Shown: positions 20,305-61,002 of the stretch, piece by piece | Layout of the letters: each line of letters opens with the position of its first letter | Position numbering within the stretch: the first letter of the stretch is position 1 | Translations under genes and position numbers: made by a program | Notes under the pieces: generated by a model | The model's input: only the letters and a program-made list of their open reading frames with translations | What the model was told of the DNA's origin: nothing | The model's database searches: none | Source of the DNA: a virus | Lineage: Duplodnaviria; Caudoviricetes | Strand: one strand, 5' to 3' | Virus record (IMG/VR): IMGVR_UViG_3300027817_000001 | Coordinates: 793-64,792 of that record | Length of the DNA stretch: 64,000 nucleotides

Positions 20305-23300
20305 GTGGATAAAGAACCGAGCCCGTTGGACGACATCGGCGACGTCGGACCGCCGATCGGCCAGGACACCAGCCAGAGCTTCGGACCAGGATCGGGCCCA
20401 ACCGTCCTGAACACGGTGACGGACAGCTTTGCGCCACAAGGCGGAGGAACCGGCGCCAGCGCGCTCGGCACGGCGCTGCAGGAAACCGGGCCGGCGCGGT
20501 TCGCCACACCGCTCGACGATATCGGCGAGATCGCGCCGGAAGAAGTGACGGTCAAGGGCGCGGTGACGCGCGGCGCGGTGCACGGCGCGGTGCCCGCAGC
20601 CGGCGCGATGGCTGGTGCTGGCGCAGGCGCTGAAGCGGGTGGCGCCGTGGGCGCGTTTCTCGGCCCGTGGGGCGCGCTTGCAGGCGGCGTGATTGGCGGC
20701 ATCGGTGGCGCGATCGGCGGCGGCTTTGCTGCCGACAAGGCACAGGACTACACGCTATCCAAGCTGCCGGATAGCTTTGTGGATGCGTTCGGCCAAGGCG
20801 AGAGGCAGCAGCGGCTCGACCAGCAGGAACGACCCGTTGCCTCGTTTGTCGGCGGCATGATTCCGTTCGCGCTGACCATGCAGCCGACCAAGTTGGCTTT
20901 TAGGGCCACGGGCTTGCCGGAAAATGCCACAACCATTCAAAAGCTGATGGCGAACCCAGTCACGGCCCGACTGTTCGGCGGCGGTGTGATGGGCGGGATG
21001 GAGCTGGGCCAAGAGGCGGCACAGGGCCAGGTCGACTGGCGCAAGGTCGGCATCGCGACCGGATTCGGCGTTGTGTTCAACAAGCCGAACGCGTTGGGCG
21101 AGGCAATCACAGAGATGGGCGCATCGCCGGCGCGGCGGATGCTCGGCCGGCCAGAACCGGCGGCGCGGCCGCCGACCATCGCACAGGCCGGCGACACCAA
21201 GATCATGGGCCCGGGCATCACCGAGGCGGTGTTCCAGGGCAGCCACGAGCAGGCGCCGGAAGCCGCGATGACGGCGCAGCAGACCGCGCGCGACGAGCAG
21301 GCGGCCCGCGGCGAGCACCCGGAGCCGAATCCGGCTGACATCGCCCGGCAGATGGAGCCGGAACTGTTCGCTCGCTATGACGATCTGGTGAGCCGTCGGG
21401 ATGCGTTTCGTAAGTGGATTGACGATTACAACCGACCGTCGCCCGAGGCCATAGCCGAGGTTGATGGCAGGGTTGCTGATCTGCAAAAGCAACTCGACGA
21501 GCATGTCGCGGAGCGCGGCGGATATGCGGCTGGGCCTGAGGCCCGGCGGCTGCGCGCGCAGATCAGGGAGACACAGAAAGAGCGCGACGAATTGGCGGGG
21601 CGGGCAGCAACGTTCTCGCGCGGCGAGGCGCAGGACACCGCAGACCTTGCTTTGGCCCGTAAGCATTTGATGGATACCGACTTCGAACTTAGGGACGTCC
21701 AGAAAGAGGTCGCGGCCGCACATCGGCGCGCCGCCGACGCCGCCGGCACCGAGACCGTCCCGGCCGAGCCGCACGCCACCATCGCCGACATGCTGGCAGA
21801 ACAGGAGAACGCACCCAATGCCCAAGCGCCAGAACAAGGAGCCGGAGCATCTGGCGTTCCAGCAGGCGGTGAAGCTGGGCCTGAAGCCGGAGCAGTGCCT
21901 GGAGCTGCTGGTGCTGTCGTTTCTGGCCCTCAACGTTCCATTGGCGATCAGCGCGCCTTCATCGCGGACGACGTCGCCCGACGATTGATCGCCGCGGGGC
22001 GTCCGGAGGACGAAGCTCGAGCGGCGGCTCAATTGGTCGCGTCGCGCTATGTCACGCGCGCCGGACGGTTCGAGGGCAAGCTTGGCTCGGCCGAGGAGCT
22101 TTATGCCAAGGAGAGCGCGGCTATCGCGGGCCCCGGCGGCAAGGCGCTCCCGCCGGCGTTTCCACCGCGCGAGGTGACCGAAGCGGCGGAGACCGCTGCT
22201 CGCGTGAAGGCCGCGACGCCAGCCGCTCAACCGGGCATTCTTGCCAACGATTTCGAGAGCGCTGACCGGATCAAAAACGAGTGGCGAAAGGCCACCCCAT
22301 TCACCGGATCGGTTGAGGATTTCATCGCCGCGTCGAAGCCCAACCAGGAATCGCTGGCCGCGGTCGGCAAGCAGCTGGCGGATGAACTCGGGCTGACGTT
22401 CAAAGATCCCGGCGTCAAGGCGGACGGGCCGGGCAAGGGACTGGATCGGCTGCAAAGCAAGGCAAAGCGGTTCGGCGCGATCGGCTCGGTGACCGACCAG
22501 GTGCGAGCCGGGTTCGACGTGAAGACGCCAGCGCAGGCAGACCAGATCGTGCAGAGGATGGGAGAGAAATTCCAGGTGACGGACGAGGGCTGGCAGATGA
22601 CGCCGGCCGGGTATTTCGACCGGAAAGTCTATGTCCGATTCCCGGACGGCATGATTGGCGAAGTCCAGATGTGGCCGCCCGGCATGCTTGCCACCAAGAA
22701 GGTTGGACACAAGCTGTATGAAGGCGCGCGCGAGCTGCCGCCGTGGCATCCGCTGATTCCGGAGTTCAACCGGACGCAAGCCGAGGTCTACGAGCCGGTG
22801 CGTGCCGCGCTTTCGGCCGAATGGAATGCGGTTTTGGGCAGGGGCGGCAACGAACCGAACCTCTTGGCGAATGCCCCCGCTGAGAGCACGGCGGCATTGG
22901 ATCCGACGTCGGCAGCGTTAACTTCTTCCCACGAGCCTTTGACCAGCGCCCATGCCTCCGAAGGAGTCCAGAAGGCCGGGAGCCCGTCCCAAGAACAGGC
23001 TTTGATGTCTGACATGTTTGGGATCTCCAACGAAAATGTAGGAGAACATGCGTCCCCCGTCAACGCCGCATTGACCGCTCGCGACAAAATCGACGAACTT
23101 TCTCCGGCCGAGCAGAAGACGCAGCTGCCGACATATACCGCAGCGGCCGAGCAATCGCCGCAGGGCCGCGACCAGCCGGCCGGCGTGTTCATGTTCGACC
23201 CCACCAAGCTTGAGGTCGACGCCAAGCGCTTCCAGTTCAAGACCGGCGGGGACGAATACGGCGTCACCGGCGCGTTGCGCAACGTCCAGAAATGGGATCC

Positions 23301-26300
23301 GGCCAAGGCGCAATCGATCATTGTGTGGGAGCAGGCGGACGGCAAGCTGTTCGTGGCCGATGGTCACCAGCGTTCCGGGCTCGCTCGCCGCCTGGTCGAA
23401 CAGGGCAAGGCGAAGGACGTCCAACTGCCGGGCGTGCTCTACCGCGAGAAGGATGGCATTTCCGCCGACGACATCCGCGCCATTGCGGCCGTGACAAACA
23501 TTGCCAACGGCTCGGGCAAGGCGATCGACGGCGCCAAGGTGCTGCGGGAGCGGCCGGACCTTCTCGACGAATCGCTGCCGCTGTCCGCCGGCAAGGGCAA
23601 GCAGGCCGCGGCGCTGGCGCGGCTCGGTGACGAAGCGTTTCGGATGGTGGTCAACGATGTGGTGCCGGAGCACTATGGTGCCGTAGTCGGCGACCTGCTG
23701 CCGAAAGATCCGGACCGCCAGGTGGCCGCGCTGAAGGCGATCGCGCGGTTCGAGCCGAAGAACGCGGACGAGGCCGCGGTGCTGACCCAGCGCGTGGCCC
23801 AGGCCGAACTGGCGAAGAAGGAGGAGGGCGCGCAAACCTCCATGTTCGGCGACCTTGAGACGCCAGAGTCGACCGCCGGCGAGGAGATGAAGATTGTTGG
23901 CCGGGCGATCGCCGACCTCAAGAAAGACAAGTCGCTGTTCGCGCGCGTGCTCGCAAATGCGGAGCGGATCGAAAAAACCGGCTCGACAATTGAGCGCGAG
24001 GCGGCGCAGAATGTCTCAAACGACGCTGAGGTTTTTGCCAAGACGCTAACATCAGAGGCCTATTCCTCGGGACCGGTGCGCACCGAGCTCGTGGCGGCCG
24101 CAAGGGACCTGAAAAATGGAAAATCATCCATCGGAGAAGCTACACAGCGAATACTCGCTGCCCTCCGGGAGCAGGCTGAGACGCATGGCGCTGATCGGAA
24201 TGGCGCTGTCGGAGCAGGGGCGAAAGAGCGAGAGCTCGCCCAAACCGACGTCGAAAGGGTCAAGGACCACGAAGGCTACCCAATCGACCGAGGCGAAATA
24301 AGCCACGATTTGCATGATGAGTGGGCGGACCTGATCCGCGATCTAAAGGAGGGCGGCGAAGACGTCCCGTCGTCCCCGGCGCTGCGCCTGGCGCTTAAGA
24401 AGTTCGATGATCTGATCAAGCAGAACGATTCGCGGCTGGTCATCCGGCGTGGCCAGATCGCCGACGTCATAGGCTCGCTCGAAAAAGCCAAGACCGACAT
24501 CGCCGAGAAATTCGAGACTGGCAGCGGCCGCGCCACGGCGAAAAGCCTGTCCGGCCGCGTGATCGAGGCCAAGATCGACGACGAGATTGTGGGGCTGCGC
24601 CGCACCGAGAAAGAGCTGCAGGACTTCTTTGGCGAGGAGGAGCCGGGCGACCTGTTCGCAGCCGAGCCCGGCGCCGAAGGCAAGCCGCAAGCCCTGATCC
24701 CGGGCGTCGCGCCGGTCACCGCGCGTGACCGCATCCAGGCGCTGGCCAACAAGCCGCTTGCTCCAAAGAAGGCGCAGAAGGCCGCCGATGAAGGGCTGTT
24801 CGGCTCGTCGAAGGATCAGAAGGAACTGTTTCAGCACAAAGCAGATCACGATGATGATCTGATTAGAATGCTTAGAGGCGCTCTGGAAACTGACGAATAC
24901 AGCTCAGTTGATAGTGCCGGAAGACGTGTTCCTGCATCTTCCCGCGAACTACTTGATCGCATGTCCAAAAAATACGGGGAAGACACTGATTTAGATCAGT
25001 GGTCAGAGAAAGATTACGACGCATATTTTGCTGCAGTCGACCGTGAAGCTGCAGTCAATAGCGAGACATTGGAAAATGCTGGAATAACGCAATCTTCAGC
25101 CAAAGCAGCCAAAGATGATGGCTTTGATACTTCACGGGAGTTTTGGCATGGCACGACGCACGGAATATTCACGGATTTTCGAGAGTCGACTGCTGAGAAC
25201 GACGTATTAGGGCCGGCCATCTATCTCGGATCAACAAAGGGGCTTTCAGATTTCTATGGTCCTGGCCGCGGCGGTGACCTGCTCGGCCCATTCCATGTCC
25301 GCGGGAATATCGTGAACGAGAACACGATGGTACCGAGGGATCCAGACAAGTATCCGGGGCAGATGGCGAAAGCGTCTCAGGTCATGGGGACGCTCAAGCT
25401 CGCTCTGGAAGACAAGCGAATGCGTGCACCATGGGGCAAGGACATGACACCAGCGCAATATGCGCGCGAGTTCTGGAAGCGGCGCGGCGTCGATGGCTAC
25501 GATTCCGGTTTTGAAGTCGCAATATACGACCCGAAGAACATCAGAGCTGGGTTTTCAATTGATGGCGGCACAATTCGCCCATCGACAGAACTCAATCAAG
25601 TCATGCGCGGCAAGATCAAGATCGGCTCCGGCCGTCCGCTGATCTCGCTGCTCAAAGATGCCAACGCCTCGACCTTCATCCATGAGACCGGCCATGAGTG
25701 GCTGGAGCAGATGGTGAAAGATGCCGCGCACCCCGACGTTTCGGATGTCGTGCGCAAGGACATGGCGTCCACGCTGGAATGGATGGGATTGGAAAAGCCA
25801 GAGGACCTGCAAGAAACTACCAAAGCTGGAAAATTGACTGCCAGAGCAACAAAGGCTCACGAGAAATTCGCCCGTGGATTCGAGCAATACATGCGCGAGG
25901 GCGTGGCTCCATCGAAAGAACTCGCCGGCGTATTTGCGCAATTCCGCAACTGGCTGCTCCAGATCTATCAGAGCCTGAAGGGTCTCGGATCAGAGATCAG
26001 CCCGGAGATCCGCGGCGTGTTCGACCGCATGCTGGAGATGGAACCGCAGCGCACCGTCATTGCGCCGGAGCGGCTGCAGCCCGATCTGCTGCACGACATC
26101 CACGAGGCCGACGCGGCACACACTCCGCCGCACGAGGCCGAGCCGGCGATGGACCGCATCATTGCGGAACGAGATCGCTACATCACAGAGCAACCCCCGG
26201 AGATTCAGCGTGAGCTCGAAGCCGCAGCCCAGAAAGTCCAAGCCGCAGAAGGACCAGCAGGAGAAGCCGCAGGCGCTCCCGGAGAAGCTTTCGCAAGCCC

Positions 26301-29013
26301 TGGCGGACCGGGACAAATGGGCGAAGGTGGCGGCGGACCCGGACCTGAGCCCGGCGGCGGCGGTGGTGGCGAGGAACATGCAGCGCAGCAGCCAAGCAGC
26401 GGCGGCGCTGGGGCAGAAGGCAACGCCGGACCAGACCCTCGATCCCAACTTGATCGTGACCCTGGGACTGCCCTCGCCCCCGGGCCAGCAGCCTCCGTTG
26501 GCGGGCGATCTTCCCCCTTCACCGACAAAGCCGGAAACATTCGGCTAGAGAACCTGACGAACAGCGCGGACGTCAGACAGGCCATCCACGACGCGGCCGA
26601 CGAGAGCAACGACTTCATCGGCGACCGTCGGGGCGTGGTCACCGACGGTCAGGTCTCCGATCTCGCCAACGACATCGGTCTGCCCGGCGCGATGGACATG
26701 GTGTCGAAATGGGTGAAGGGGCAGGCCTACAACGCCGAGCAGGTGGTGGTGCTCCGTAGGCTGCTGCGCTCCTCGGCGGTTGATCTGTCCGAGAAGATGA
26801 AGCAGGCCGCGATCGGCACTGACGAGGACGTGATGGCCTACGCCGAGGCTCGAGATCGGCATCAACTCATTCAGCGGACCGTCACAGGCGCCACGGCAGA
26901 GGCCGGCCGGACGCTGCGGGCATTCCGGAACATCGCTGGCGAGGAAGGTTCGGCGGCCAAGGCCATTGATGAGCTGGTGAAGATCGGCACCGGCAAGACG
27001 CTGTTTCAGCTCAAGGCTGAGGCGAAGATGGGCGCCAAGCTCGACACCCCGGAGAAGATTTCGCGGTTCATGCAAGATGCACAGAAACGCAACTTCGGCC
27101 GTGGCGTGCTGGAATATTTCGTCAACGCGCTGATCTCGGGACCTATTACCCACATCACCTACGGCGTCGGCAATGAGGTATCGTCGATCCTGCGCGCCGG
27201 CCCGGAGACCCTTGCGGCAGCGGCGATCGGCAAGGTCCGCCAGGCGCTGGGCCGCGAGGGCGAGGTGGTGCACGCCGGCGAGGCGCTGGCGCAGTACAAA
27301 GCACGCTACGGGACCATTCCGGCCTCAATCCAATCCGCTATGGAGGCGGCCAGGACCGGCATGACGACGCTGTTGCCCGGGGAAGAGATCGCACCGGGCC
27401 ATGGCGCCCTGACCCCGTTCGAAGGCGACGCCAGCCTTGCAACTGCAAAATCCATAACCAACGCGCCGGTGTCATGGAACGAGGCGATGGGGAGCGCGTT
27501 CGGCGCGGTACGCGGGATCAAGGATGCGTTCTGGGTCGGCGGCACGCTGAATGACAAGCCGATCGGGCTGGAATATTCGCCCCTTGGCCAGATCCCCGAC
27601 GTGCGGGTGAGTAGCGTCAACATCCCGATCGGCACCGCGATTCGGCTGCCCGGCCGGCTAGTCGCGGCCGAGCACAGCTTCTTCCGCACCGCAAACTATT
27701 CCATGGAACGCGCCGCGGAGGCCTACCGCGCTGCCACCGACGAAGGCCTGACCGGAACGGCGCGAGACCAGCGCATCGCCCAGATCGAACTCAACCCGAG
27801 CCAGGAGCAGATGGACCGCTGGATCACGGCTTCAAGTCACGCCACGCTGATGGGCCAGGGCGGCGCGTTCGTGCGCAAGCTCAGCGCGATGATGAACCAC
27901 GAATTCAATGTCCCGGGCATCGGCCCGACCCCGCTGCTGAAGTTCATGGACCCGTTCATCAAGATCTCGGGCAACATCATCGACCAGTCCCTGGTTCAGC
28001 GAACCCCGATCGGTTTGCTGTCGACCGAGCTGCGCGCCGACCTGATGGGGAAAAACGGGACCATTGCCCAGGACAAGGCGCAGGCCCGGATGCTGGTCGG
28101 AACTGGGCTGGCGTTGCTCTCGGGCAGCCTTGCGGCGCAGGGCTATGTGACCGGCTCGGGCCCGTCGGACCCCAAGGAAGCCGCGATGTGGCAGCTGGCC
28201 GGCAACCAGGCGCACAGCGTCAGGATCGGGGATTTCTGGTATCAGATCAACAAGCTTGGACCCTATGGCGTGCTGACCGGGATCGCGGCCGACCTCTACG
28301 AGGTGGCGCACGACGCTACGGATGGCGACATGCTGAAAGCTGCGATGCATTTGCAGCACGCGTTCACCCAGAACATCCTCGACGAATCGTTCATGAAAGG
28401 CCCATCTGACCTGATCAAGGCGGTGGACGATCCCGGCCGCTATGGTGAGAACTACATCAAGAGCTTCGCGTCATCGTTCACCCCGTTCTCGTCTGGCCTC
28501 TACCAGCTCAACCGGATGAACGATCCCTATCAGCGGGAAACCCGGTCCGTGGTCGACGCGATCAAGGCCAAGGTTCCGGGCCTGTCCGAAACACTGATGC
28601 CGCGGCGGGACGTGTGGGGCCAGCCGATGCCGAGCCGGGAGGGCGCCGGATACCTCACATCGATCTACGTGCAGAAGATGAACGCGGACCCGGTGAACCA
28701 AGCCATGCTCGATGCGCAGTTCTTCCCCGGGCAGGTCGAGAAGAAAATCCGGAACATCGAACTGACTCCCGAGGAATACGACGATTTTGCTCGGATTGCT
28801 GGAACTTTGACCAAGATCAACTTGGACAAACTTGTCGCATCACCGATGTGGCAAGATATGCCTTTGGGAGCCAAGCAAGACTGGATCAAGCTCGCGGTAG
28901 AGCAGAACCGTGAGATCGCGCGCGGCATCATCATGTACAAGCTCTACCCGCACATTTGGATCGACGCTCAAAAGCAAGCTGCCCAATGGAAGGTGGAGGG
29001 GAAGAAGCGATGA
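20305..29013 (+). CDS. giant polyvalent internal virion/DNA-ejection protein (RelA/SpoT-like, ParB-like, ART, zincin domains)
   Basis: 2902 aa; N-terminal glycine zipper; KGLDRLQSK..TDQVR..GYFD..EVQ..HKLYE (~22.4-22.8 kb); FVADGHQR (~23.35 kb); FWHGT..GPAIY..EVAIYDPKNIR (~25.1-25.55 kb); ASTFIHETGH (~25.68 kb); last position of ejection module. Confidence 0.88.
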   Translation: MDKEPSPLDDIGDVGPPIGQDTSQSFGPGSGPTVLNTVTDSFAPQGGGTGASALGTALQETGPARFATPLDDIGEIAPEEVTVKGAVTRGAVHGAVPAAGAMAGAGAGAEAGGAVGAFLGPWGALAGGVIGGIGGAIGGGFAADKAQDYTLSKLPDSFVDAFGQGERQQRLDQQERPVASFVGGMIPFALTMQPTKLAFRATGLPENATTIQKLMANPVTARLFGGGVMGGMELGQEAAQGQVDWRKVGIATGFGVVFNKPNALGEAITEMGASPARRMLGRPEPAARPPTIAQAGDTKIMGPGITEAVFQGSHEQAPEAAMTAQQTARDEQAARGEHPEPNPADIARQMEPELFARYDDLVSRRDAFRKWIDDYNRPSPEAIAEVDGRVADLQKQLDEHVAERGGYAAGPEARRLRAQIRETQKERDELAGRAATFSRGEAQDTADLALARKHLMDTDFELRDVQKEVAAAHRRAADAAGTETVPAEPHATIADMLAEQENAPNAQAPEQGAGASGVPAGGEAGPEAGAVPGAAGAVVSGPQRSIGDQRAFIADDVARRLIAAGRPEDEARAAAQLVASRYVTRAGRFEGKLGSAEELYAKESAAIAGPGGKALPPAFPPREVTEAAETAARVKAATPAAQPGILANDFESADRIKNEWRKATPFTGSVEDFIAASKPNQESLAAVGKQLADELGLTFKDPGVKADGPGKGLDRLQSKAKRFGAIGSVTDQVRAGFDVKTPAQADQIVQRMGEKFQVTDEGWQMTPAGYFDRKVYVRFPDGMIGEVQMWPPGMLATKKVGHKLYEGARELPPWHPLIPEFNRTQAEVYEPVRAALSAEWNAVLGRGGNEPNLLANAPAESTAALDPTSAALTSSHEPLTSAHASEGVQKAGSPSQEQALMSDMFGISNENVGEHASPVNAALTARDKIDELSPAEQKTQLPTYTAAAEQSPQGRDQPAGVFMFDPTKLEVDAKRFQFKTGGDEYGVTGALRNVQKWDPAKAQSIIVWEQADGKLFVADGHQRSGLARRLVEQGKAKDVQLPGVLYREKDGISADDIRAIAAVTNIANGSGKAIDGAKVLRERPDLLDESLPLSAGKGKQAAALARLGDEAFRMVVNDVVPEHYGAVVGDLLPKDPDRQVAALKAIARFEPKNADEAAVLTQRVAQAELAKKEEGAQTSMFGDLETPESTAGEEMKIVGRAIADLKKDKSLFARVLANAERIEKTGSTIEREAAQNVSNDAEVFAKTLTSEAYSSGPVRTELVAAARDLKNGKSSIGEATQRILAALREQAETHGADRNGAVGAGAKERELAQTDVERVKDHEGYPIDRGEISHDLHDEWADLIRDLKEGGEDVPSSPALRLALKKFDDLIKQNDSRLVIRRGQIADVIGSLEKAKTDIAEKFETGSGRATAKSLSGRVIEAKIDDEIVGLRRTEKELQDFFGEEEPGDLFAAEPGAEGKPQALIPGVAPVTARDRIQALANKPLAPKKAQKAADEGLFGSSKDQKELFQHKADHDDDLIRMLRGALETDEYSSVDSAGRRVPASSRELLDRMSKKYGEDTDLDQWSEKDYDAYFAAVDREAAVNSETLENAGITQSSAKAAKDDGFDTSREFWHGTTHGIFTDFRESTAENDVLGPAIYLGSTKGLSDFYGPGRGGDLLGPFHVRGNIVNENTMVPRDPDKYPGQMAKASQVMGTLKLALEDKRMRAPWGKDMTPAQYAREFWKRRGVDGYDSGFEVAIYDPKNIRAGFSIDGGTIRPSTELNQVMRGKIKIGSGRPLISLLKDANASTFIHETGHEWLEQMVKDAAHPDVSDVVRKDMASTLEWMGLEKPEDLQETTKAGKLTARATKAHEKFARGFEQYMREGVAPSKELAGVFAQFRNWLLQIYQSLKGLGSEISPEIRGVFDRMLEMEPQRTVIAPERLQPDLLHDIHEADAAHTPPHEAEPAMDRIIAERDRYITEQPPEIQRELEAAAQKVQAAEGPAGEAAGAPGEAFASPGGPGQMGEGGGGPGPEPGGGGGGEEHAAQQPSSGGAGAEGNAGPDPRSQLDRDPGTALAPGPAASVGGRSSPFTDKAGNIRLENLTNSADVRQAIHDAADESNDFIGDRRGVVTDGQVSDLANDIGLPGAMDMVSKWVKGQAYNAEQVVVLRRLLRSSAVDLSEKMKQAAIGTDEDVMAYAEARDRHQLIQRTVTGATAEAGRTLRAFRNIAGEEGSAAKAIDELVKIGTGKTLFQLKAEAKMGAKLDTPEKISRFMQDAQKRNFGRGVLEYFVNALISGPITHITYGVGNEVSSILRAGPETLAAAAIGKVRQALGREGEVVHAGEALAQYKARYGTIPASIQSAMEAARTGMTTLLPGEEIAPGHGALTPFEGDASLATAKSITNAPVSWNEAMGSAFGAVRGIKDAFWVGGTLNDKPIGLEYSPLGQIPDVRVSSVNIPIGTAIRLPGRLVAAEHSFFRTANYSMERAAEAYRAATDEGLTGTARDQRIAQIELNPSQEQMDRWITASSHATLMGQGGAFVRKLSAMMNHEFNVPGIGPTPLLKFMDPFIKISGNIIDQSLVQRTPIGLLSTELRADLMGKNGTIAQDKAQARMLVGTGLALLSGSLAAQGYVTGSGPSDPKEAAMWQLAGNQAHSVRIGDFWYQINKLGPYGVLTGIAADLYEVAHDATDGDMLKAAMHLQHAFTQNILDESFMKGPSDLIKAVDDPGRYGENYIKSFASSFTPFSSGLYQLNRMNDPYQRETRSVVDAIKAKVPGLSETLMPRRDVWGQPMPSREGAGYLTSIYVQKMNADPVNQAMLDAQFFPGQVEKKIRNIELTPEEYDDFARIAGTLTKINLDKLVASPMWQDMPLGAKQDWIKLAVEQNREIARGIIMYKLYPHIWIDAQKQAAQWKVEGKKR
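21818..21988 (+). CDS. nested +1-frame ORF (56 aa) inside giant gene
   Basis: AGGAG 21803-21807; MPKRQNKEPEHLAFQQAVKLGLKPEQCLELLVLSFLALN...; GC-ending codons in this frame while host frame turns A/T-ending. Confidence 0.6.
   Translation: MPKRQNKEPEHLAFQQAVKLGLKPEQCLELLVLSFLALNVPLAISAPSSRTTSPDD
22788..23015 (-). CDS. nested antisense ORF (75 aa), candidate antitoxin of RelA/SpoT-like domain
   Basis: MSDIKACSWDGLPAFWTPSEAWALVKGSWEEVNAADVGSNAAVLSAGAFAKRFGSLPPLP...; GGAG 9 nt upstream; promoter upstream. Confidence 0.7.
   Translation of the reverse strand: MSDIKACSWDGLPAFWTPSEAWALVKGSWEEVNAADVGSNAAVLSAGAFAKRFGSLPPLPKTAFHSAESAARTGS
23035..23063 (-). promoter_or_regulatory. sigma70-like promoter for nested antisense ORF
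   Basis: Minus strand TTGACG (23063-23058), 17 nt, TACATT (23040-23035). Confidence 0.7.
24116..24301 (+). CDS. nested +1-frame ORF (61 aa) inside giant gene
   Basis: AAGGGA 8 nt upstream; MENHPSEKLHSEYSLPSGSRLRRMALIGMALSEQ...; host frame locally A/T-ending. Confidence 0.45.
   Translation: MENHPSEKLHSEYSLPSGSRLRRMALIGMALSEQGRKSESSPKPTSKGSRTTKATQSTEAK
26210..26548 (+). CDS. nested +1-frame ORF (112 aa) inside giant gene
   Basis: GGAG 26199-26202 before GTG; ...EKLSQALADRDKWAKVAADPDLSPAAAVVARNMQRSSQAAAALG...; host frame here is a Gly/Pro/Glu low-complexity linker. Confidence 0.6.
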   Translation: MSSKPQPRKSKPQKDQQEKPQALPEKLSQALADRDKWAKVAADPDLSPAAAVVARNMQRSSQAAAALGQKATPDQTLDPNLIVTLGLPSPPGQQPPLAGDLPPSPTKPETFG

Positions 29014-29202
29014 CAAAAGAAAACCGCCCTTTCGGGCGGCCATTCTCCCCTTTCAACCTCTCCAGCCATAAGCAAGGATCAGACGGTTGCCAGCACACCA
29101 CGGGGACCAGCACTGGTTGGTTGGGCGCTTCCATACACTCCATCTGATTGACGTTCAAGTCAAACGTCCGTAAGTTCGCCATAATTTTGTAGGGGCACCA
29201 AT

Positions 29203-54171: not shown

Positions 54172-54386
54172 TCGTGGATGTGGAACCGGGCGATGTATAC
54201 GCGGACGACAACGGCAAGCTCTGGCGCGTCGTCGGCGTCTTCCATGAGCCATCTGTGAGCATGGAAGAAATCGAGCACACCGTGCCTGACAATCCGCTGC
54301 GGGTAACTGGCGGCATGAGCGGTCTGATGTGGCATAGATTCCGCCGCATCTTTCGCCCGGAAAAGCGCAAGGAACTGGTCGGATGA
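54168..54386 (+). CDS. hypothetical protein
   Basis: AAGGAG RBS; ATGA coupling. Confidence 0.55.
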   Translation: MIVDVEPGDVYADDNGKLWRVVGVFHEPSVSMEEIEHTVPDNPLRVTGGMSGLMWHRFRRIFRPEKRKELVG

Positions 54387-54646
54387 GTGAGCTTTACGGT
54401 CGCGGTCCTTTGATGGATGCTTTGCCGGGACTGAAGTCGATGCGCATGTCGCCGCGCGGGAAATGGAAGGCCGCATGGCGCCAGGTTCGCATCCTCCGGC
54501 GCGAAACTTCCAAGGCTCAACGTGACATGCTGATCTTTGGAACCGGATACGTGTTCGTGAGCGGGGACGGCTTCATCAACCATGTTCTGCCCGACGCGGT
54601 CCTGATTGGGTCTGACGGCAGCATCACCAGGAAAGGCGCGCTATGA
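54383..54646 (+). CDS. small protein composed of portal-like motifs
   Basis: YGRGPLMDALPGLK and AQRDMLIFGTGYVFV match portal YGRSPCMTALGDNK and AFQDLALFGTAPFII. Confidence 0.7.
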   Translation: MSELYGRGPLMDALPGLKSMRMSPRGKWKAAWRQVRILRRETSKAQRDMLIFGTGYVFVSGDGFINHVLPDAVLIGSDGSITRKGAL

Positions 54647-55502: not shown

Positions 55503-55791
55503 CGCGGAGAAATACGCCTACAAAACCGATGCTCCGGCGCAGACCGCATTGGATTCGATCCACGCGCAGCTGCGCGCTAGCTTCGATGAGCTCGTGGCAA
55601 TTCAAGACCGCATCAGTGGTGTGCTCAACCGATCATTCGGCGAATCGCCATCGACGGCGAGCGAAAGCTCTCCCAAGCCGCGGCCGGTCCGAAGCGGCGC
55701 CCTCGGCAACATCGAAGACGGCCAGGACAACATCAGGGAGATGATCTCCAATATCAGCAGCCAGATCGCCCGGCTGGAAACCATTGCCTGA
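55474..55791 (+). CDS. helical hypothetical protein upstream of terL
   Basis: AGGAG RBS; coupled to terL. Confidence 0.65.
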   Translation: MDYAKATQHDAEKYAYKTDAPAQTALDSIHAQLRASFDELVAIQDRISGVLNRSFGESPSTASESSPKPRPVRSGALGNIEDGQDNIREMISNISSQIARLETIA

Positions 55792-57269
55792 TGGGTGACC
55801 CCAACCTCGAAGCAGGTTCAAATCTGAAACGGTGGCGGGAGCATCCCGCCGCCTACGTCGAGGAGCGCTTCAAGGTGAAGCCTGACCCAGCGCAGGCCGA
55901 AGCGCTTGAGGCGTTCCCGAACAATCCCCGCATCGCGCTGCAGGCCTGCACAGGAGCGGGCAAGACCAGCACGCTCGCTTGGCTGGGCTGGAATTTCATG
56001 CTGACCAGGCCGTACCCGATCGTCGGCGCCACATCGATCTCGGGCGACAACCTCAAGGCCAATCTTTGGACAGAATTAGCCCGCTGGCGCAATGTCGACC
56101 CGATGCTGAACGAGCTGTTCGACCAGACCACGAAGTCGATCACCAACCGCCAATCCCCCGAAACGTGGAAGATGGAGGCGCGGACATGGGACAGATCGGC
56201 CGACGCGGCGAACATCGGCAACTCGCTGCGCGGCATCCACGCGCAATACGTCATGTGGCTGTTGGACGAGACTGGAGGTTATCCCGACGCGATCCTGCCG
56301 ACGTGCGAAGCAATCTTCTCGGGAAGCCCGAAGGAGGCGCACATTGTGCAGGCCGGCAACCCAATCCGCCGCGCAGGGCCGCTGTGGAAGGCCGCGAGCT
56401 CGGGGCGCAAATCCTGGTACGTGATTGAGATCACCGCCGACCCTGACGCGCCGAACCGCACCCCGCGCGTGTCGGTGGAGCATGCCCGCCAGCAGATCGC
56501 GGATTGGGGCGGCCGCGAATCGCCCTTCGTGATGGTGAACGTGCTCGGCAAGTTCCCGCTGGCTGATTTCAACGCGCTGATCTCGACCGAGGAATGCGAG
56601 GCGGCGATGAAGCGCTATTACCGCCCCGACGAGATCGGCGACGCGGCGCGCGTGATGGGCATCGACGTCGCTGCCGAGGGCGACGACGCGAGCGTGATCT
56701 TCTGCCGGCAGGGCCTGCAGAGCTTCCCGATGATCAAGAAGCGGAACATCAACTCGACCCAGGGCGCCGGCCTGGTCGCGCGCAAATGGGAGGATTGGGG
56801 CGCTGACGCCGCATTCATCGACATGACCGGCGGGTTCGGTGCGGGCTGGTTCGACAAGCTGGTCGAGTTGCACAAAGCGCCGATCGGCGTGCAGTTCGCC
56901 GGCGAGGCGCACGAGAGCTCGCGGTATTTCAACAAGCGGACCGAGATGTATTTCGACGCCTGCGAATGGATCAAGCGGGGCGGCGCGCTGCCACCGAGCC
57001 CGGAGATCACTGCGGCGCTGACCCAGACGCTCTACACCTTTAAGGGCGATCGGCTGCTGCTCGAGCCCAAGAAGCTCGTGAAGCAGAAGCTCGGCTATTC
57101 TCCCGACGAGGCGGACGCGCTGGTGCTGACCTTCGCGGAGCCGGTGGTGCGGGCGTCGCGCACGCTGGTCAAGCCGCGGCACACCGCCAATTATGACCCG
57201 TTCCGCGAGGCGAACGCGGGCTTCAACCTGAAATCGGCCGTAGATTCGTCATACGACCCGTTCAAATAG
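55791..57269 (+). CDS. terL: terminase large subunit
   Basis: ACTGAGKT Walker A; WLLDE Walker B; GNP; GIDVAAEGDDAS nuclease; SPDEADAL. Confidence 0.93.
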   Translation: MGDPNLEAGSNLKRWREHPAAYVEERFKVKPDPAQAEALEAFPNNPRIALQACTGAGKTSTLAWLGWNFMLTRPYPIVGATSISGDNLKANLWTELARWRNVDPMLNELFDQTTKSITNRQSPETWKMEARTWDRSADAANIGNSLRGIHAQYVMWLLDETGGYPDAILPTCEAIFSGSPKEAHIVQAGNPIRRAGPLWKAASSGRKSWYVIEITADPDAPNRTPRVSVEHARQQIADWGGRESPFVMVNVLGKFPLADFNALISTEECEAAMKRYYRPDEIGDAARVMGIDVAAEGDDASVIFCRQGLQSFPMIKKRNINSTQGAGLVARKWEDWGADAAFIDMTGGFGAGWFDKLVELHKAPIGVQFAGEAHESSRYFNKRTEMYFDACEWIKRGGALPPSPEITAALTQTLYTFKGDRLLLEPKKLVKQKLGYSPDEADALVLTFAEPVVRASRTLVKPRHTANYDPFREANAGFNLKSAVDSSYDPFK

Positions 57270-57279
57270 GGACGACACC

Positions 57280-57807
57280 ATGAACGCACCTTTGAAGGAA
57301 ATGCCGCGCTACGTGAGCCACAAGACGGTTCACGCGCTCAAGATTGCCGCGATCGAGATTCACGAGGACAAGTCGGCCACGATCGCGCCTGTGGATGGCG
57401 GGATCGGCTCAGCGTTCCAAACCAAAGCTGGCTGGGCCGAGCGCTTCACCGGCTCCGAGGAGGACAAGGGATATTTCGTTCAATATGCCGACGGCTTTGC
57501 CTCATGGTCGCCGACGAAGGCGTTCGAGGAAGGCTACACGCGCGAGGGCGAAGCAAAGCAGCACGCAGGTCTGCCGGTTTCCGGCTACAAGCCACAGAAC
57601 TCATATGCCGTCAGCATGGTGAACGCGAACAAGCACATGGAGGAGGAAATCCTCCGGCAATTGGACATGATGGCGAAGGACGACCAGTTGAAGGTCGATC
57701 ATCGCTGGCTTGCAATCGGCCGGACGGCGATCGAGCAGGCGTTCATGGCGATCAACCGCGCGATCTTCAAGCCCGGCCGCGTCGCGCTGCCCGGCGACAG
57801 CGAGTAA
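57280..57807 (+). CDS. two-domain anti-defence candidate: GY-V-Y-DG--SWSP domain fused to Acb2-like domain
   Basis: N: RYVSHKTVHALKI...GYFVQYADGFASWSPTKAFEEGY; C: GYKP...VNANK...RWLAIGRTAIEQAFMAINRAIFKP. Confidence 0.78.
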   Translation: MNAPLKEMPRYVSHKTVHALKIAAIEIHEDKSATIAPVDGGIGSAFQTKAGWAERFTGSEEDKGYFVQYADGFASWSPTKAFEEGYTREGEAKQHAGLPVSGYKPQNSYAVSMVNANKHMEEEILRQLDMMAKDDQLKVDHRWLAIGRTAIEQAFMAINRAIFKPGRVALPGDSE

Positions 57808-57884
57808 CATAGGACACAACAACCCCTAGCAACCAGCCGCCCGATGCGCTACTTTCGCGGGTGCATCGGGTGGGGCTTGCAGAA

Positions 57885-58487
57885 ATGACAAAATGGATTC
57901 GGGTGACGCTCGCGGCCATAGCCGGTGTCGTCGCAATCGCCCTGCTCGCTTCTCCCCCGACGTCCGGCCAGATCCGCGATCCCGCCATGCCAGGGCCTCA
58001 AGGTCCGGCCGGCGCGAGCGGAACCCCAGGCTCCCAAATCTGGCAGACCAACGGCGTGCCGAGCCCGGCGATCGGCGCGAACACCGACCTTGCGGTGGAT
58101 ACGACCACGGCGAACGTCTACCAGAAGGAGGCAGGAGCTTGGACCGGGCCGACCATGAACCTGAAGGGGCCGACCGGAGCGACAGGGGCAACAGGCTCGC
58201 AGGGACCGCCAGGCGCCGCGGCTGGGTCCTCGCAGATCACCACGAACACCGCCGGATCAGGAACGTGGACCTATCCCGCGACGTGCAATTCGAGCTCGAA
58301 GTTCTGGGCGCAGGCTCAGGTCCCGGCCGGCGCGGCCTCGGTGAACGTATGGAATGTCGGACCGCCGACCTCGACCACGCAGACGTTCCAGATCAGCCTG
58401 CAGGTTGTGGTCTCGGTGGTTGGGATCAACGTGCTGCAGCTCAACTCCACGCCGGGCGCGACGACCTTGAACGTGTTCTGCCAATAG
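57885..58487 (+). CDS. signal-peptide-bearing collagen-repeat protein
   Basis: Hydrophobic N-terminus ending TSG|Q; GPQGPAGASGTPG and GPTGATGATGSQGPPG. Confidence 0.7.
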   Translation: MTKWIRVTLAAIAGVVAIALLASPPTSGQIRDPAMPGPQGPAGASGTPGSQIWQTNGVPSPAIGANTDLAVDTTTANVYQKEAGAWTGPTMNLKGPTGATGATGSQGPPGAAAGSSQITTNTAGSGTWTYPATCNSSSKFWAQAQVPAGAASVNVWNVGPPTSTTQTFQISLQVVVSVVGINVLQLNSTPGATTLNVFCQ

Positions 58488-58519
58488 AATAGGCTGAGCT
58501 GAGCAAACGAGGGGACATC

Positions 58520-58885
58520 ATGAGCATCGTCTACAATTACGGCGACATCGGCGCGCAGATGAAGGGCGACACGTGGTGGGAGCCGGAGAAGCCGGAGCCG
58601 AGCCTGCCTGCAATCGCGGAACCTCAGACCGAGGTCGAGCGATGCAAAGCCGATCCGCTATATTTCGCCAAGGAGTTCATGGCGGAGCAAGTCGCATCAT
58701 TCGCAGCGCGTCGCCAAGCCGAGAATGCGGCTTTCCTTAAAGGCCTTTCGCAGAGCACTCATGAGACGTTCATTTATCGTACGTCTCTCCCGCCCGGCTC
58801 ATGGCGCCGTCTTCGACCGCTGGCCGAGAAAGGCATGAGTCACGGCTCTTGCCCCACCGGAAAAATCAACCTCCACGGCAAATAG
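58520..58885 (+). CDS. small protein with terminase-like and capsid-like motifs
   Basis: GAGGGG RBS; EVERCKADPLYFAKEF; HETFIYRTSLPPGSWRRL. Confidence 0.65.
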   Translation: MSIVYNYGDIGAQMKGDTWWEPEKPEPSLPAIAEPQTEVERCKADPLYFAKEFMAEQVASFAARRQAENAAFLKGLSQSTHETFIYRTSLPPGSWRRLRPLAEKGMSHGSCPTGKINLHGK

Positions 58886-58895
58886 GCACGATCCC

Positions 58896-58924
58896 TAGAC
58901 AATTACCCTGCCGGAACATACTAT
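58896..58924 (+). promoter_or_regulatory. sigma70-like promoter upstream of portal unit
   Basis: TAGACA-17-TACTAT. Confidence 0.5.
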
Positions 58925-58956
58925 CCCGGCGATTTTAACCGGCGGGGTCTCCATCC

Positions 58957-59166
58957 ATGAGCTTTCTTGCTCCATCAGCACCAGCGGCGCCCCCTCCTCC
59001 CCCGCCGCCTCCGACCCCGCCGACGCTGGCCGATTCGTCGATACAGGCCGCAGGAGCAGCCCAGAGAGCTGCCGCAGCGTCAGCCGGTGGAACGGTCAAG
59101 ACCTCGGTACAGGGCGCTCCGGATCCACAAACCACGAGCGGGTCGAAAGCCCTTTTTGGCTCATAG
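58957..59166 (+). CDS. small Pro-rich virion protein preceding portal
   Basis: PPPPPP, TS.QG, K.LFG pattern typical of pre-portal gene in this phage group. Confidence 0.7.
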   Translation: MSFLAPSAPAAPPPPPPPPTPPTLADSSIQAAGAAQRAAAASAGGTVKTSVQGAPDPQTTSGSKALFGS

Positions 59167-59169
59167 AGC

Positions 59170-61002
59170 ATGAACGCCATCCCGGAAGCGAGCCAGTTCA
59201 CCCGGCCCCAGTACGTGAACATGGGGCCCAGCCTGCTGTCGCAGCAGCCCGCCACGACCAGCTTCAAGGCTCAGCCGGACAGCTTCAAATGGGGTGTGAT
59301 CTTCGACCACCTGGAATCGCGGCTCGGCTCGCTCAGGATGTGGCGGACCAGCTGGTATTTCTACTGGCGCTCGCTCGCTCAGTTCTTCATGCCGAAGCGA
59401 ATCACGTGGTTCGAGCCCGTAGCCAACCGGATGAACCGGGGCAACCCGATCAATGACGCGATCATCGACTCGACCGGAACGCTCGCGCTGGAGACCTGCG
59501 GTGCCGGCATGTGGTCCGGCCTCACCAATCCGGCCCGGCCATGGATCAAGCTCGAGAGCGCGCTGCCATGGGTCAAGCTTGATGCTGATGGGCAGGAATG
59601 GGTCGACGACACCGAGCAGCGGATCTACACCGTCCTGGCAGGGTCGAACTTCTACAATCAAATGGCGCAGGCGTTCCAGGACTTGGCACTGTTCGGCACC
59701 GCGCCGTTCATCATCTACGAGGACTTCGAGGACGTCATCCGGCTCTACCTGCCCTGTGCGGGGGAATATTACCTCGGCGCCGGCGCGCGGCTGTCGGTCG
59801 ACACGCTCTATCGCGAGTTCACCTACACCGTGTCTCAAATCGTCGAGATGTTCGGCCTCGACGCGTGCCCAGCCGAGATCCAGAAGCAATGGGCCGAGGG
59901 CGGCGCGAGCCACGACATGGAGTATGTCGTCGCGCACGCGATCGAGCCGAATTACGCGCTGCGCAACACCGGGAGCGGCAAAGCCGACATCAAGGTGGTG
60001 CCGGCAATCTTCACTTATCGCGAGGTCTACTGGCTGAAGGGCAAGAAGACGCCGCAGCCGCTGAGCGTGGCCGGGTTCCACGGAAAGCCATTCGGCGCGA
60101 TGCGCTGGTCGACCGTCTCGAACGACGCCTACGGCCGATCGCCCTGCATGACGGCGCTGGGCGACAACAAGCAGGTGCAGCAGGAGACCAGGCGCAAGGC
60201 TGAATTCATCGAGAAGCTGGTCCGGCCGCCGATGGGCGCCAACCCTGAGCTGAAGAACGAACCGAGTTCCATCATCCCCGGCAACATCACGTACACCAAC
60301 ACCGAGGGAGGTAAGAAGGGCTTCTGGCCGCTGTTCGAGGTCCAGCCGGCTGCTCTGGCGCCGATGATCCAGGACATCAAGGACGTCAACGCCCGGGTCG
60401 AGAAGGCCCTGTTCGTCGACGTGTTCATGGCGATCACCCAGATGGAGGGCGTGCAGCCCCGGAACGAGCTGGAGCTCACCAAACGCGACCTCGAGCGGCT
60501 GCAGAAGCTCGGGCCCGTGATCGAGCTGGTCGAGGCCGAGCTGCGGATCGCGCTGGAACGGGTCATGGACATCATGGACCGCCGGAAGATGCTGAAGGCC
60601 CGGCCCGCCTCGCTGCTCAAGACGCCGATCAAGATCTCGTTCCTGTCGATCATGCGAATCGCCCAGCAGTCCTCGGTCGCGGTCGGGCTGAAGGACTTCT
60701 TCGCGACCATGGGCGGGCTGAGCTCGGCGGCGAAGGCCGCGGCAGTCCCGGATCCGCTTCGCAAGGTAAACCTGGCCAAGGCGGTCGACAAGTTCGCCGA
60801 CGCGATGAACATCCCGGCCGATCTGCTGTTCACCGACGACGAGGTGGCGCAGCACGACAAGGCACGAGATCAGGCAATGCAGCAGCAGCAGGCGCCGCAG
60901 CAGGCCATGGCCGGCGTGCAGGCCGCCAAGACGCTGAGTGAAACACAGGTGGGCGGCGACAGCGCGTTGAGTGCGCTGCTCGGCCATGGCGGAGCACAGT
61001 AG
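59170..61002 (+). CDS. portal (head-tail connector) protein
   Basis: DSTG..A; GLTNPARPW; SNFY..DLALFGT; YGRSP; LGPV. Confidence 0.93.
   Translation: MNAIPEASQFTRPQYVNMGPSLLSQQPATTSFKAQPDSFKWGVIFDHLESRLGSLRMWRTSWYFYWRSLAQFFMPKRITWFEPVANRMNRGNPINDAIIDSTGTLALETCGAGMWSGLTNPARPWIKLESALPWVKLDADGQEWVDDTEQRIYTVLAGSNFYNQMAQAFQDLALFGTAPFIIYEDFEDVIRLYLPCAGEYYLGAGARLSVDTLYREFTYTVSQIVEMFGLDACPAEIQKQWAEGGASHDMEYVVAHAIEPNYALRNTGSGKADIKVVPAIFTYREVYWLKGKKTPQPLSVAGFHGKPFGAMRWSTVSNDAYGRSPCMTALGDNKQVQQETRRKAEFIEKLVRPPMGANPELKNEPSSIIPGNITYTNTEGGKKGFWPLFEVQPAALAPMIQDIKDVNARVEKALFVDVFMAITQMEGVQPRNELELTKRDLERLQKLGPVIELVEAELRIALERVMDIMDRRKMLKARPASLLKTPIKISFLSIMRIAQQSSVAVGLKDFFATMGGLSSAAKAAAVPDPLRKVNLAKAVDKFADAMNIPADLLFTDDEVAQHDKARDQAMQQQQAPQQAMAGVQAAKTLSETQVGGDSALSALLGHGGAQ

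What the first reader, a model, noticed from the sequence alone, without database searches (positions are those of the whole stretch)
58520..58885. 121-aa chimera carrying a terminase N-terminal motif and a major-capsid motif: second candidate decoy
Seen: HETFIYRTSLPPGSWRRL (58760-58813) matches the phage's own capsid HEFAFRTSIPAGSWRQI (764-814), and both are preceded by LSQS. The DNA differs at silent sites (cgc/cgt, tcg/tct, tcc/tca), which suggests conservation at the protein level. EVERCKADPLYFAKEF resembles the first helix of large terminases (own TerL: NLKRWREHPAAYVEERF). Known: capsid and terminase are triggers of CapRel-, Lit- and Avs-type defences. Inference: a multi-epitope mimic placed between terL and portal. 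With 54383..54646 it suggests a general strategy of self-fragment decoys covering portal, terminase and capsid.
Basis: partly seen in the sequence, partly recalled or inferred. Interest (0 to 1): 0.83.

Follow-up and report, generated by a model that had tools for sequence, protein, structure and literature searches.

The report
Small phage protein copying capsid segments
A soil phage carries a small accessory gene, part of a rare gene family, whose product repeats the most conserved peptide stretches of the phage's own coat protein; it may act as a molecular stand-in for that coat protein, but its function has not been tested.

Summary
The ORF at 58520..58885 (121 aa) is real and the capsid resemblance is far beyond chance. 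The terminase resemblance is not supported.

- **Two capsid copies, not one.** The protein copies two segments of the phage's own GP7/BPP-1-type major capsid protein: the spine helix (capsid 97-129, ORF 54-86) and the first E-loop strand plus tip (capsid 48-66, ORF 80-98). Their order is reversed relative to the capsid.
- **Statistics.** A capsid-family HMM ranks this frame first among 911 non-capsid frames (E 9.3e-5; next 0.16). None of 2000 shuffles reaches the observed alignment score.
- **A family.** Thirteen relatives (58-163 aa) share a conserved N-terminal ~25 residues. In 11 of 14 members the capsid-HMM score beats all 300 shuffles. The capsid-like segments vary in number, order and spacing; one member has three.
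- **Conserved residues.** The E-loop copy keeps the capsid's near-invariant P, W and R.
- **Context.** The gene sits in a variable terL-portal island, two genes from an Acb2/Tad1-type gene. Five of five complete relatives lack it.
- **Mechanism (inferred).** Most likely a soluble competitor for a partner of the capsid E-loop/P-domain, plausibly a capsid-sensing immune protein (about 0.4). The main rival is direct action on capsid assembly.

The parts
58520..58885 (+). ORF121, a 121-aa accessory protein (the stop codon is included in the coordinates)
   Evidence: Listed as an ORF. The in-frame codon score is -4.01, against -4.39 and -4.49 in the other two frames, and GC3 is 0.70. All 14 family members start with the same M-S/D-I residues.
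58509..58514 (+). GAGGGG Shine-Dalgarno-like site, 5 nt upstream of the ATG
   Evidence: Read directly from the sequence.
58520..58603 (+). Conserved N-terminal module (aa 1-28), the family signature. It is followed by a Pro/Glu-rich linker.
   Evidence: Invariant M1, I3, K15, D17, W19 and W20 across 14 sequences. Mean pairwise identity is 0.61 over aa 1-22 in 11 members. It shows no similarity to the capsid.
58679..58777 (+). Spine-helix-like segment (aa 54-86)
   Evidence: Matches capsid HMM positions 97-129 at 13.9 bits. It lies inside the only confidently modelled element of the ORF, helix 46-83, with block-mean pLDDT 87-96 over residues 51-80.
58757..58813 (+). E-loop-like segment (aa 80-98). 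It overlaps the previous segment by 7 residues.
   Evidence: Matches capsid HMM positions 48-66 at 8.9 bits. hhalign of the family against the capsid family gives probability 94.5% and E 8e-8 over 27 columns.
58814..58882 (+). C-terminal tail (aa 99-121). The model is low-confidence here.
   Evidence: The same tail occurs in P0003, and a related one in P0010: 3 of 14 members. pLDDT is below 50 for residues 102-121.
617..1663 (+). Major capsid protein of the GP7/BPP-1/epsilon15 type, the model for the copied segments
   Evidence: Pfam PF20911, E 6.6e-91. PDB 3j4u at E 5.6e-60 and 3j40 at E 3e-55.
758..814 (+). Capsid aa 48-66: the first E-loop strand (model E49-57) and the start of the loop tip
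   Evidence: AlphaFold2 model with pLDDT 76.9. This is among the most conserved stretches in 72 capsids.
905..1003 (+). Capsid aa 97-129: the spine helix (model H104-129) and its lead-in
57280..57807 (+). Neighbouring accessory gene with an Acb2/Tad1 hairpin domain
   Evidence: Pfam PF24729, E 2.2e-14, 53.8 bits against a cut-off of 27. Acb2 (PDB 8ixz) at E 0.015.
57861..58487 (+). Neighbouring accessory gene, collagen-like with a hydrophobic N-terminus
   Evidence: Weak Pfam Collagen and PHROG collagen-like tail hits.
55791..57269 (+). Large terminase, the left border of the variable island
   Evidence: phrog_2, E 3.3e-20. Conserved in L005, L008, L098, L099 and L103.
58957..59166 (+). Conserved Pro-rich 69-aa core gene, the right border of the island
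   Evidence: Present upstream of the portal gene in L002, L005, L008, L099 and L104. phrog_831, E 0.0015.
59170..61002 (+). Portal protein
   Evidence: Pfam PF12236, E 5.7e-105.

Best explanation
**Shown.** ORF121 is a genuine late-operon accessory protein of a rare family. Each member has a conserved ~25-residue N-terminal module and a Pro/Glu linker. This is followed by a largely disordered part built from short copies of the most conserved peptide segments of the GP7/BPP-1-type major capsid protein. In ORF121 these are the spine helix followed by the first E-loop strand and tip.

**Inferred.** The protein works as a soluble, monovalent stand-in for the capsid's E-loop/P-domain. It occupies a factor that normally binds newly made capsid protein. 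The most plausible factor is a host capsid-sensing immune protein of the Thoeris, CBASS or CapRel kind. ORF121 lacks the rest of the capsid that such a sensor needs for activation, so sensing would be blunted. The Acb2-like sponge encoded two genes upstream would mop up the signalling nucleotide.

Confidence in the descriptive part is about 0.9. The figure given is for the decoy mechanism.
For: **The match is not chance.**
- See the BLASTP, shuffle and phmmer tests in the observation check.
- The capsid HMM (72 sequences) ranks this frame first of 911 non-capsid frames, at E 9.3e-5 against 0.16 for the next.
- In 5 of 5 related complete phage genomes, the only six-frame matches of ORF121 are these two spots of the capsid gene.

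**The feature is family-wide and selected.**
- Twelve of 14 members hit the capsid HMM, and 11 of 14 beat all 300 shuffles.
- P0010 scores 41.7 bits with three segments.
- hhalign gives E 8e-8.
- The copies keep the capsid's near-invariant residues: P59 in 10 of 11, W63 in 11 of 11 and R64 in 9 of 11. The proteins are otherwise only about 35% identical.

**The similarity is at protein level, not from a recent duplication.** Nucleotide identity is 65% and 44% in the two segments, and there is no blastn match.

**The gene is accessory.**
- The island between terL and the Pro-rich gene differs in L002 and L005 and is absent in L008.
- Five of five complete relatives lack the gene.

**Counter-defence context.** An Acb2/Tad1-domain gene lies two genes upstream.

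**Published precedent.**
- ThsB1 binding needs the capsid E-loop Trp, while ThsB2 recruitment needs the distant P-loop (PMC12578639, section 9 read).
- Capsid mutations escape CBASS in phages that lack acb2 (PMC10419184, passages read).

**Model.** The ORF is one confident helix plus disorder, the sort of architecture seen in proteins that bind partners through linear motifs.
Against: - No binding partner is known, and the host is unknown (soil metagenome).
- Known capsid sensors are activated by binding, so a copy could trigger rather than block them.
- The spine helix is sandwiched inside the folded P-domain (PMC3863775, passages read). It is therefore an unlikely surface epitope of native capsid.
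- Every family cluster is a singleton, so the family is rare.
- One relative (L100) has only the N-terminal module. It sits between the scaffold and capsid genes of a phage with a different capsid type, and it does not resemble that capsid (E 1.3). This points towards a head-assembly role for the constant module.
- GC3 is lower than in core genes: 0.70 against 0.85-0.89.
Confidence: 0.4

Rival explanations
1. Capsid-assembly modulator. The copies of the E-loop strand and spine helix dock onto the phage's own capsid protein, or that of a related phage. They would occupy the sites where a neighbouring subunit's E-loop or P-domain would sit. This would delay or cap polymerisation, tune head assembly, or poison the assembly of competing phages with the same capsid type.
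For: - All five loci with context place the gene in the head and packaging module. It lies directly after terL in L098 and L103, in the terL-portal island in the window and in L099, and between scaffold and capsid in L100.
- It is on the same strand as the late genes and tightly packed with them, with no promoter-like site upstream.
- In BPP-1, E-loops and P-domains of neighbouring capsomers join head to tail into the non-covalent chainmail (PMC3863775, passages read). The copied elements are therefore inter-subunit contact elements.
Against: - The gene is dispensable: 5 of 5 complete relatives with 68-82% identical capsids lack it.
- The number, order and spacing of the segments vary between members, which fits a defined structural docking mode poorly.
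- A self-poisoning inhibitor made together with the capsid would need extra regulation.
Confidence: 0.25
2. Packaged head-internal protein. The conserved N-terminal module is a targeting peptide that brings the protein into the procapsid, and the capsid-like segments help it sit on the inner shell. It would be ejected with the DNA and act early in the next cell.
For: - The N-terminal ~25 residues are the only universally conserved part, followed by a flexible linker.
- The gene is located in the head module, including the N-module-only relative next to the scaffold and capsid genes in L100.
- N-terminal capsid-targeting peptides of T4 internal proteins are a recalled precedent; no call supports this.
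Against: - No similarity to any known internal or ejection protein. Pfam, PHROGs and NCBIfam give no hit.
- No proteomic data exist.
- The spine helix faces the inside of the shell only as part of the fold, so a copy has no obvious docking site.
Confidence: 0.1
3. Evolutionary debris. The gene is a scrambled remnant of a captured capsid gene fragment fused to an unrelated small ORF. It is drifting and has no function tied to the capsid-like segments.
For: - GC3 is lower than in core genes.
- Every family cluster is a singleton.
- In L098 the spine-like segment lies in another reading frame, a compensated double frameshift.
- P0004 and P0015 lack capsid HMM hits.
- A related phage (G001) carries a different small ORF with a 50-residue copy of the capsid C-terminus (E 1.3e-11). 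Capture of capsid fragments therefore happens in this clade.
Against: - Members that are only about 35% identical overall keep the same capsid-invariant residues. Drift would have erased 18-33-residue similarities.
- The segment order is permuted, so simple deletion of a captured gene cannot explain it.
- The start codon, RBS and open frames are intact in 13 cluster representatives.
- The L098 frameshift is compensated, so the E-loop copy stays in frame.
Confidence: 0.12
4. Chance resemblance between a short ORF and a 348-aa protein.
For: The segments are short, 19 and 33 residues. Database-wide searches do not bring up capsids at significant E-values.
Against: See the shuffle, HMM-ranking, family-wide and profile-profile tests listed under the best explanation.
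Confidence: 0.01

Closest known systems
GP7/BPP-1/epsilon15-type major capsid protein (Pfam PF20911; PDB 3j4u, 3j40)
   Same: ORF121 shares two short stretches with it: the spine helix and the first E-loop strand and tip. These include the near-invariant P, W and R.
   Different: ORF121 has 121 aa, not about 340. It has no Pfam hit at E <= 0.1, the two segments are in reversed order, and the rest of the HK97-like fold is absent. The model shows one helix plus disorder. It is not a capsid protein.
Capsid sensing by Thoeris ThsB1/ThsB2 (Roberts et al. 2025, PMC12578639)
   Same: The E-loop of an HK97-fold capsid protein, with a critical Trp, is the contact for the sensor. ORF121 copies exactly an E-loop strand and tip with a Trp.
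   Different: That study used a staphylococcal system and an unrelated capsid family. No phage-encoded E-loop copy is described in the sections I read (abstract, section 9). No Thoeris system of this phage's host is known.
Acb2/Tad1 nucleotide sponges
   Same: They are small phage accessory counter-defence proteins. One with this domain lies two genes upstream in the same island.
   Different: ORF121 has no similarity to them. Any action would be at the sensing step, not on the signal.
Gol peptide of T4 gp23 and Lit; Bas11 Gp54 and CapRelSJ46
   Same: A short capsid peptide, or a small phage protein, is what a defence protein binds. Gol/Lit is recalled and comes from no call. For Gp54 I read a passage of the review PMC13728456.
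   Different: Both are triggers, not blockers. The title of the primary paper, which is recalled, calls the capsid protein and Gp54 two disparate proteins. Whether Gp54 resembles its capsid was not tested here.
Phage-encoded mimics that neutralise defence, such as antitoxin mimics (ICP1 Gp145, passage in PMC13728456) and DNA mimics such as Ocr (recalled)
   Same: The general logic is the same: a small protein imitates the natural ligand of a host protein.
   Different: Those imitate host antitoxins or DNA. Here the imitated object is the phage's own structural protein, as a mosaic of linear segments.

Membership tests
Major capsid protein GP7 (PF20911) | Full-length match to the family profile above the gathering score | tested here: not met
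   No Pfam family hits ORF121 at E <= 0.1. A purpose-built HMM of 72 capsids matches only positions 97-129 and 48-66, for 17.2 bits in total.
Major capsid protein GP7 (PF20911) | HK97-like fold with A-domain, P-domain and E-loop hairpin in native order | tested here: not met
   The AlphaFold2 model has one helix (46-83) and the rest is at low confidence. The segment order is reversed relative to the capsid.
Large terminase (N-terminal region) | Significant similarity to TerL or a terminase profile | tested here: not met
   BLASTP E 16. 277 of 2000 shuffles reach the score. A 6-sequence TerL HMM gives no hit. No Pfam or PHROG terminase hit.
ORF121 family (unnamed, defined here) | N-terminal M-S-I-[VI]-x-x-[YF]...K-G-D-x-W-W module at the very start of a protein of 58-163 aa | tested here: met
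   Thirteen relatives at E <= 1e-3 among 1.84 billion representatives. M1, I3, K15, D17, W19 and W20 are invariant in 14 of 14.
ORF121 family (unnamed, defined here) | At least one capsid-like segment downstream of the N-module | tested here: met
   ORF121 has two. Twelve of 14 members hit the capsid HMM.
Acb2/Tad1 sponges (PF24729) | Hairpin domain match | tested here: not met
   ORF121 has no hit. The match belongs to the neighbouring gene 57280..57807.
Anti-defence decoy of a capsid sensor (functional class) | Binds a host sensor and lowers its activation by capsid protein | not testable with these tools
   The host and the sensor are unknown. The class is supported only by context and published precedent.

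The most novel reading that the evidence does not exclude
Phages with BPP-1/epsilon15-type heads carry a family of 'self-capsid peptide mosaics'. These are small disordered proteins that string together the invariant peptide elements of their own coat protein: the E-loop, the spine helix and a P-domain strand. They would act as monovalent antagonists of capsid-sensing immunity. Together with the adjacent Acb2-like sponge they would form a two-layer counter-defence, one protein blocking the sensor and the other soaking up the signal. This would be the first anti-defence strategy based on imitating the phage's own trigger.
Probability: 0.25. Interest if true: 0.9.

Novelty: new variant of a known kind. 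Interest (0 to 1): 0.72.

Why it matters
Capsid proteins have recently emerged as triggers of several bacterial immune systems. The known phage answers are escape mutations and signal sponges.

A phage gene family made of copies of the capsid's own most constrained peptides would be a third answer: competing for the sensor with the very elements the capsid cannot mutate. If instead the family acts on assembly, it would be a new kind of trans-acting head-assembly regulator built from capsid parts.

Either way the family is a compact, testable object. It is 121 aa with three obvious point mutants (P, W, R). It also shows that short self-similarities between accessory ORFs and structural genes can be real and selected.

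Tried and rejected
**Terminase motif.** Rejected.

**Complex prediction.** Complex prediction of the capsid (A3) with ORF121 (A2) scored 0.00 in both runs. The verdict was 'no answer', and I make no use of it.

**Expression.** No RNA holder is listed for 57200-59300. Only two soil-metagenome DNA runs, which may be the source, hold the stretch. I did not lay reads.

**Protein Atlas.** No usable feature hit. The structure hits all have TM below 0.5 on a poor model.

**Family and annotated-genome searches with nothing found.**
- No Pfam, PHROG or NCBIfam family for ORF121.
- No tblastn match in 50,697 phage records at E <= 1.

**Scans of sequence collections.**
- The first scans with the 4-sequence alignment found nothing in the viral, metagenome or genome collections.
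- Repeats with the 14-sequence alignment found 3 viral loci and 3 metagenome loci. Two of the metagenome loci (L101, L102) have the same length and match position as viral loci L098 and L099, and I treat them as the same contigs.
- The repeat found none in 185,579 species genomes.

**Fused or longer forms.** None at E <= 0.01 among 8000 scored candidates. The tool itself calls this weak evidence.

**Mimicry of a different capsid type.** The L100 relative against its own Phage_capsid_3 capsid gives E 1.3, so no support.

**Lifestyle.** No tyrosine integrase in the genome. Lifestyle remains unknown.

**Literature.**
- Two full-text searches found no paper describing a phage protein that imitates its own capsid: 'major capsid protein' + decoy + anti-defense + phage gave 4 papers, and capsid + mimic + sensor + anti-phage + trigger gave 54 papers of which 15 were listed. 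I read listings and abstracts only, apart from the papers cited.

Full report
**What is there**

The window is bases 793-64792 of a 64,792-bp virus record with direct terminal repeats, rated complete. It was assembled from soil metagenomes. It has no close cultured relative: the best capsid identity among 50,697 phage records is 40.7%.

The ORF at 58520..58885 (+, 121 aa) has a GAGGGG site 5 nt before its ATG. Its codon score is best in frame: -4.01, against -4.39 and -4.49 in the other frames. Its GC3 is 0.70, lower than the 0.85-0.89 of terL, portal and capsid.

It is the third of three tightly packed same-strand genes between the large terminase (55791..57269) and a conserved Pro-rich 69-aa gene that precedes the portal gene (59170..61002). 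The other two genes are a 175-aa protein with an Acb2/Tad1 hairpin domain (PF24729, E 2.2e-14) and a collagen-like 208-aa protein.

**Check of the observation**

It is not chance, as four tests show:
- BLASTP gives two local alignments with the capsid (617..1663; PF20911, E 6.6e-91), at E 4e-5 and 5e-5.
- The Smith-Waterman score of 68 is reached by 0 of 2000 shuffles (mean 29.5, max 57).
- phmmer of the ORF against all 912 stop-to-stop frames of 40 aa or more puts the capsid at E 1.3e-6 and the next frame at 0.12.
- An all-vs-all phmmer of 299 frames of 100 aa or more against the 912 frames, with default filters, lists the capsid/ORF121 pair (E 0.0017) among only 9 non-overlapping pairs below 0.01.

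The terminase resemblance fails every test. BLASTP gives E 16. 277 of 2000 shuffles reach the score. A 6-sequence TerL HMM gives no hit.

**The match is two copies, not one**

I built an HMM from 72 capsids: the window's own plus 71 of the 76 loci. Five partial loci (L043, L047, L067, L071, L089) were dropped.

Searched against the 912 frames, the ORF121 frame is the best non-capsid hit, at E 9.3e-5 and 17.2 bits. The next hit is at 0.16. The hit has two parts:
- capsid positions 97-129 against ORF residues 54-86;
- capsid positions 48-66 against ORF residues 80-98.

The two parts overlap by seven residues in the ORF and stand in the reverse of their capsid order.

In an AlphaFold2 model of the capsid (37-row alignment, pLDDT 76.9), residues 49-57 are the first strand of the E-loop hairpin, 58-75 its tip, and 104-129 the long spine helix. 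The capsid is 5.6e-60 from the solved BPP-1 coat protein. [quoted passage not shown]

Both copied stretches are among the most conserved of the capsid family. In 5 of 5 related complete genomes, a six-frame search with ORF121 finds only these two spots of the capsid gene, and no ORF121 homologue.

**A family**

A word-indexed search found 3 relatives. A profile search of 1.84 billion representatives found 13 at E <= 1e-3, ranging from 58 to 163 aa. All ten looked up are singleton clusters from metagenomes.

All 14 sequences share the first ~25 residues, with M1, I3, K15, D17, W19 and W20 invariant, followed by a Pro/Glu-rich linker. The remainder differs strongly between members.

Against the capsid HMM the results were:
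- 12 of 14 members hit.
- 11 of 14 exceed all 300 of their own shuffles.
- P0013 is reached by 1 of 300 shuffles.
- P0004 and P0015 have no hit.
- P0010 scores 41.7 bits with three segments, in fully reversed order (capsid 231-261, then 102-133, then 49-71).
- P0012 has the E-loop-like piece before a very close spine-helix copy.

Profile-profile comparison of the family with the capsid family gives probability 94.5% and E 8e-8 over 27 columns. Anchored on the motif, 11 members keep the capsid's P59 (10 of 11), W63 (11 of 11), R64 (9 of 11), T56 and N67 (8 of 11 each). Overall identity to ORF121 is about 35% for most members.

**Context elsewhere**

In three further loci the family gene follows terL. 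It is directly adjacent in L098 and L103, and inside the terL-portal island in L099.

Relatives without the gene have other content there (L002, L005) or nothing between terL and the Pro-rich gene (L008). The site is therefore a variable accessory island.

One relative with only the N-terminal module (L100) lies between a gene in the scaffold position, which has no Pfam hit, and a capsid of another family (PF13252). It shows no similarity to that capsid (E 1.3).

**Origin**

The copies are not a recent duplication. Nucleotide identity is 35 of 54 and 49 of 111 in the two segments, and there is no blastn hit.

The permuted and variable order excludes a simple deletion derivative of a captured capsid gene.

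In L098 the spine-like segment is readable only in another frame, and the frame returns for the E-loop copy. This is a compensated double frameshift or a pair of sequencing errors.

A related phage (G001) has a different 96-aa ORF with a Tat-like signal and a 50-residue copy of the capsid C-terminus (E 1.3e-11). Capture of capsid pieces into accessory ORFs therefore recurs in this clade.

**How it most likely works**

Shown: a small, mostly disordered protein (one confident helix, 46-83) made from the late operon presents linear copies of capsid elements that the capsid itself cannot change.

Inferred: it competes with newly made capsid protein for a binding partner. I favour a host capsid sensor (0.4) for three reasons:
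- The gene is dispensable and sits in an accessory island beside an Acb2-like gene.
- Capsid proteins are reported triggers of Thoeris, CBASS and CapRel (PMC13728456 and PMC10419184, passages read).
- In staphylococcal Thoeris, ThsB1 binding needs the E-loop Trp while ThsB2 recruitment needs the P-loop about 60 Å away (PMC12578639, section 9). This would make an E-loop-only copy a blocker rather than a trigger.

Against this reading:
- No partner or host is known.
- Sensors are normally activated by binding.
- The spine helix is buried in the native fold.
- The N-module-only relative in a head module hints at an assembly role.

The rivals are direct action on capsid assembly (0.25), a packaged internal protein (0.1), drifting debris (0.12) and chance (0.01).

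**The wider claim**

A 12-sequence portal HMM does rank the frame of 54383..54646 first among non-portal frames, but only at E 0.027 and 8.4 bits. The portal 'decoy' is therefore borderline and the terminase one absent. A general three-target strategy is not established.

**Verdict**

The terminase part is rejected. The decoy reading is plausible but untested.

I found no description of such a family. I rate it a new variant of molecular mimicry by phage accessory proteins, with interest 0.72.

Noticed in passing
window 57280..57807 (+): A 175-aa protein whose C-terminal part (aa 102-164) matches the Acb2/Tad1 hairpin domain: PF24729, E 2.2e-14, 53.8 bits against a cut-off of 27. It also matches Acb2 of PaMx33 (PDB 8ixz, E 0.015). 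The N-terminal half matches PHROGs of unknown function. It is a candidate cyclic-nucleotide sponge with an extra domain.
   Followed up: partly
BLASTP gives E 0.006, Pfam Head-tail_con E 0.023, and a 12-sequence portal HMM ranks its frame first of the non-portal frames at E 0.027. The result is borderline.
   Followed up: partly
L104 4555..4845 (-) = G001:C1:48554-48844: A related 64.6-kb phage carries a 96-aa ORF with a twin-arginine-like signal peptide. It is followed by a 50-residue copy of the capsid C-terminus (capsid HMM 291-340, E 1.3e-11). It lies on the opposite strand in the island between the portal and scaffold genes.
   Followed up: partly
L098 1784..2065 (+): In this family member (P0011), about 24 codons are out of frame. 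The spine-helix-like segment is readable only in another frame, and the frame returns just before the E-loop copy. This is either a compensated double frameshift or two sequencing errors.
   Followed up: partly
window 58957..59166 (+): A Pro-rich 69-aa ORF lies upstream of the portal gene. It is conserved in L002, L005, L008, L099 and L104 (phrog_831, E 0.0015) and appears to be a core head-module gene of unknown function.
   Followed up: no
window 28910..29071 (+), an alternative frame inside the 2902-aa gene 20305..29013: A frame with a K-L-P-x-G-x-W stretch matches relative P0002 at E 8.8e-4. It overlaps a very large gene out of frame, so it is probably chance.
   Followed up: no
window 58814..58882 (ORF121 aa 99-121): A C-terminal tail with an H-G-S-C-P-T-G core is shared by 3 of 14 family members (P0001, P0003, P0010). 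It is a further exchangeable module with no detected relative.
   Followed up: no
L099 9614..10105 (+): An HNH plus AP2-domain homing-endonuclease-like gene is inserted between the Pro-rich gene and the portal gene of a related phage (PF13392, E 9.3e-13; PF00847, E 2.5e-7).
   Followed up: no
window 20305..29013 (+): A single 2902-aa ORF, presumably a giant virion-associated protein. It was not analysed.
   Followed up: no
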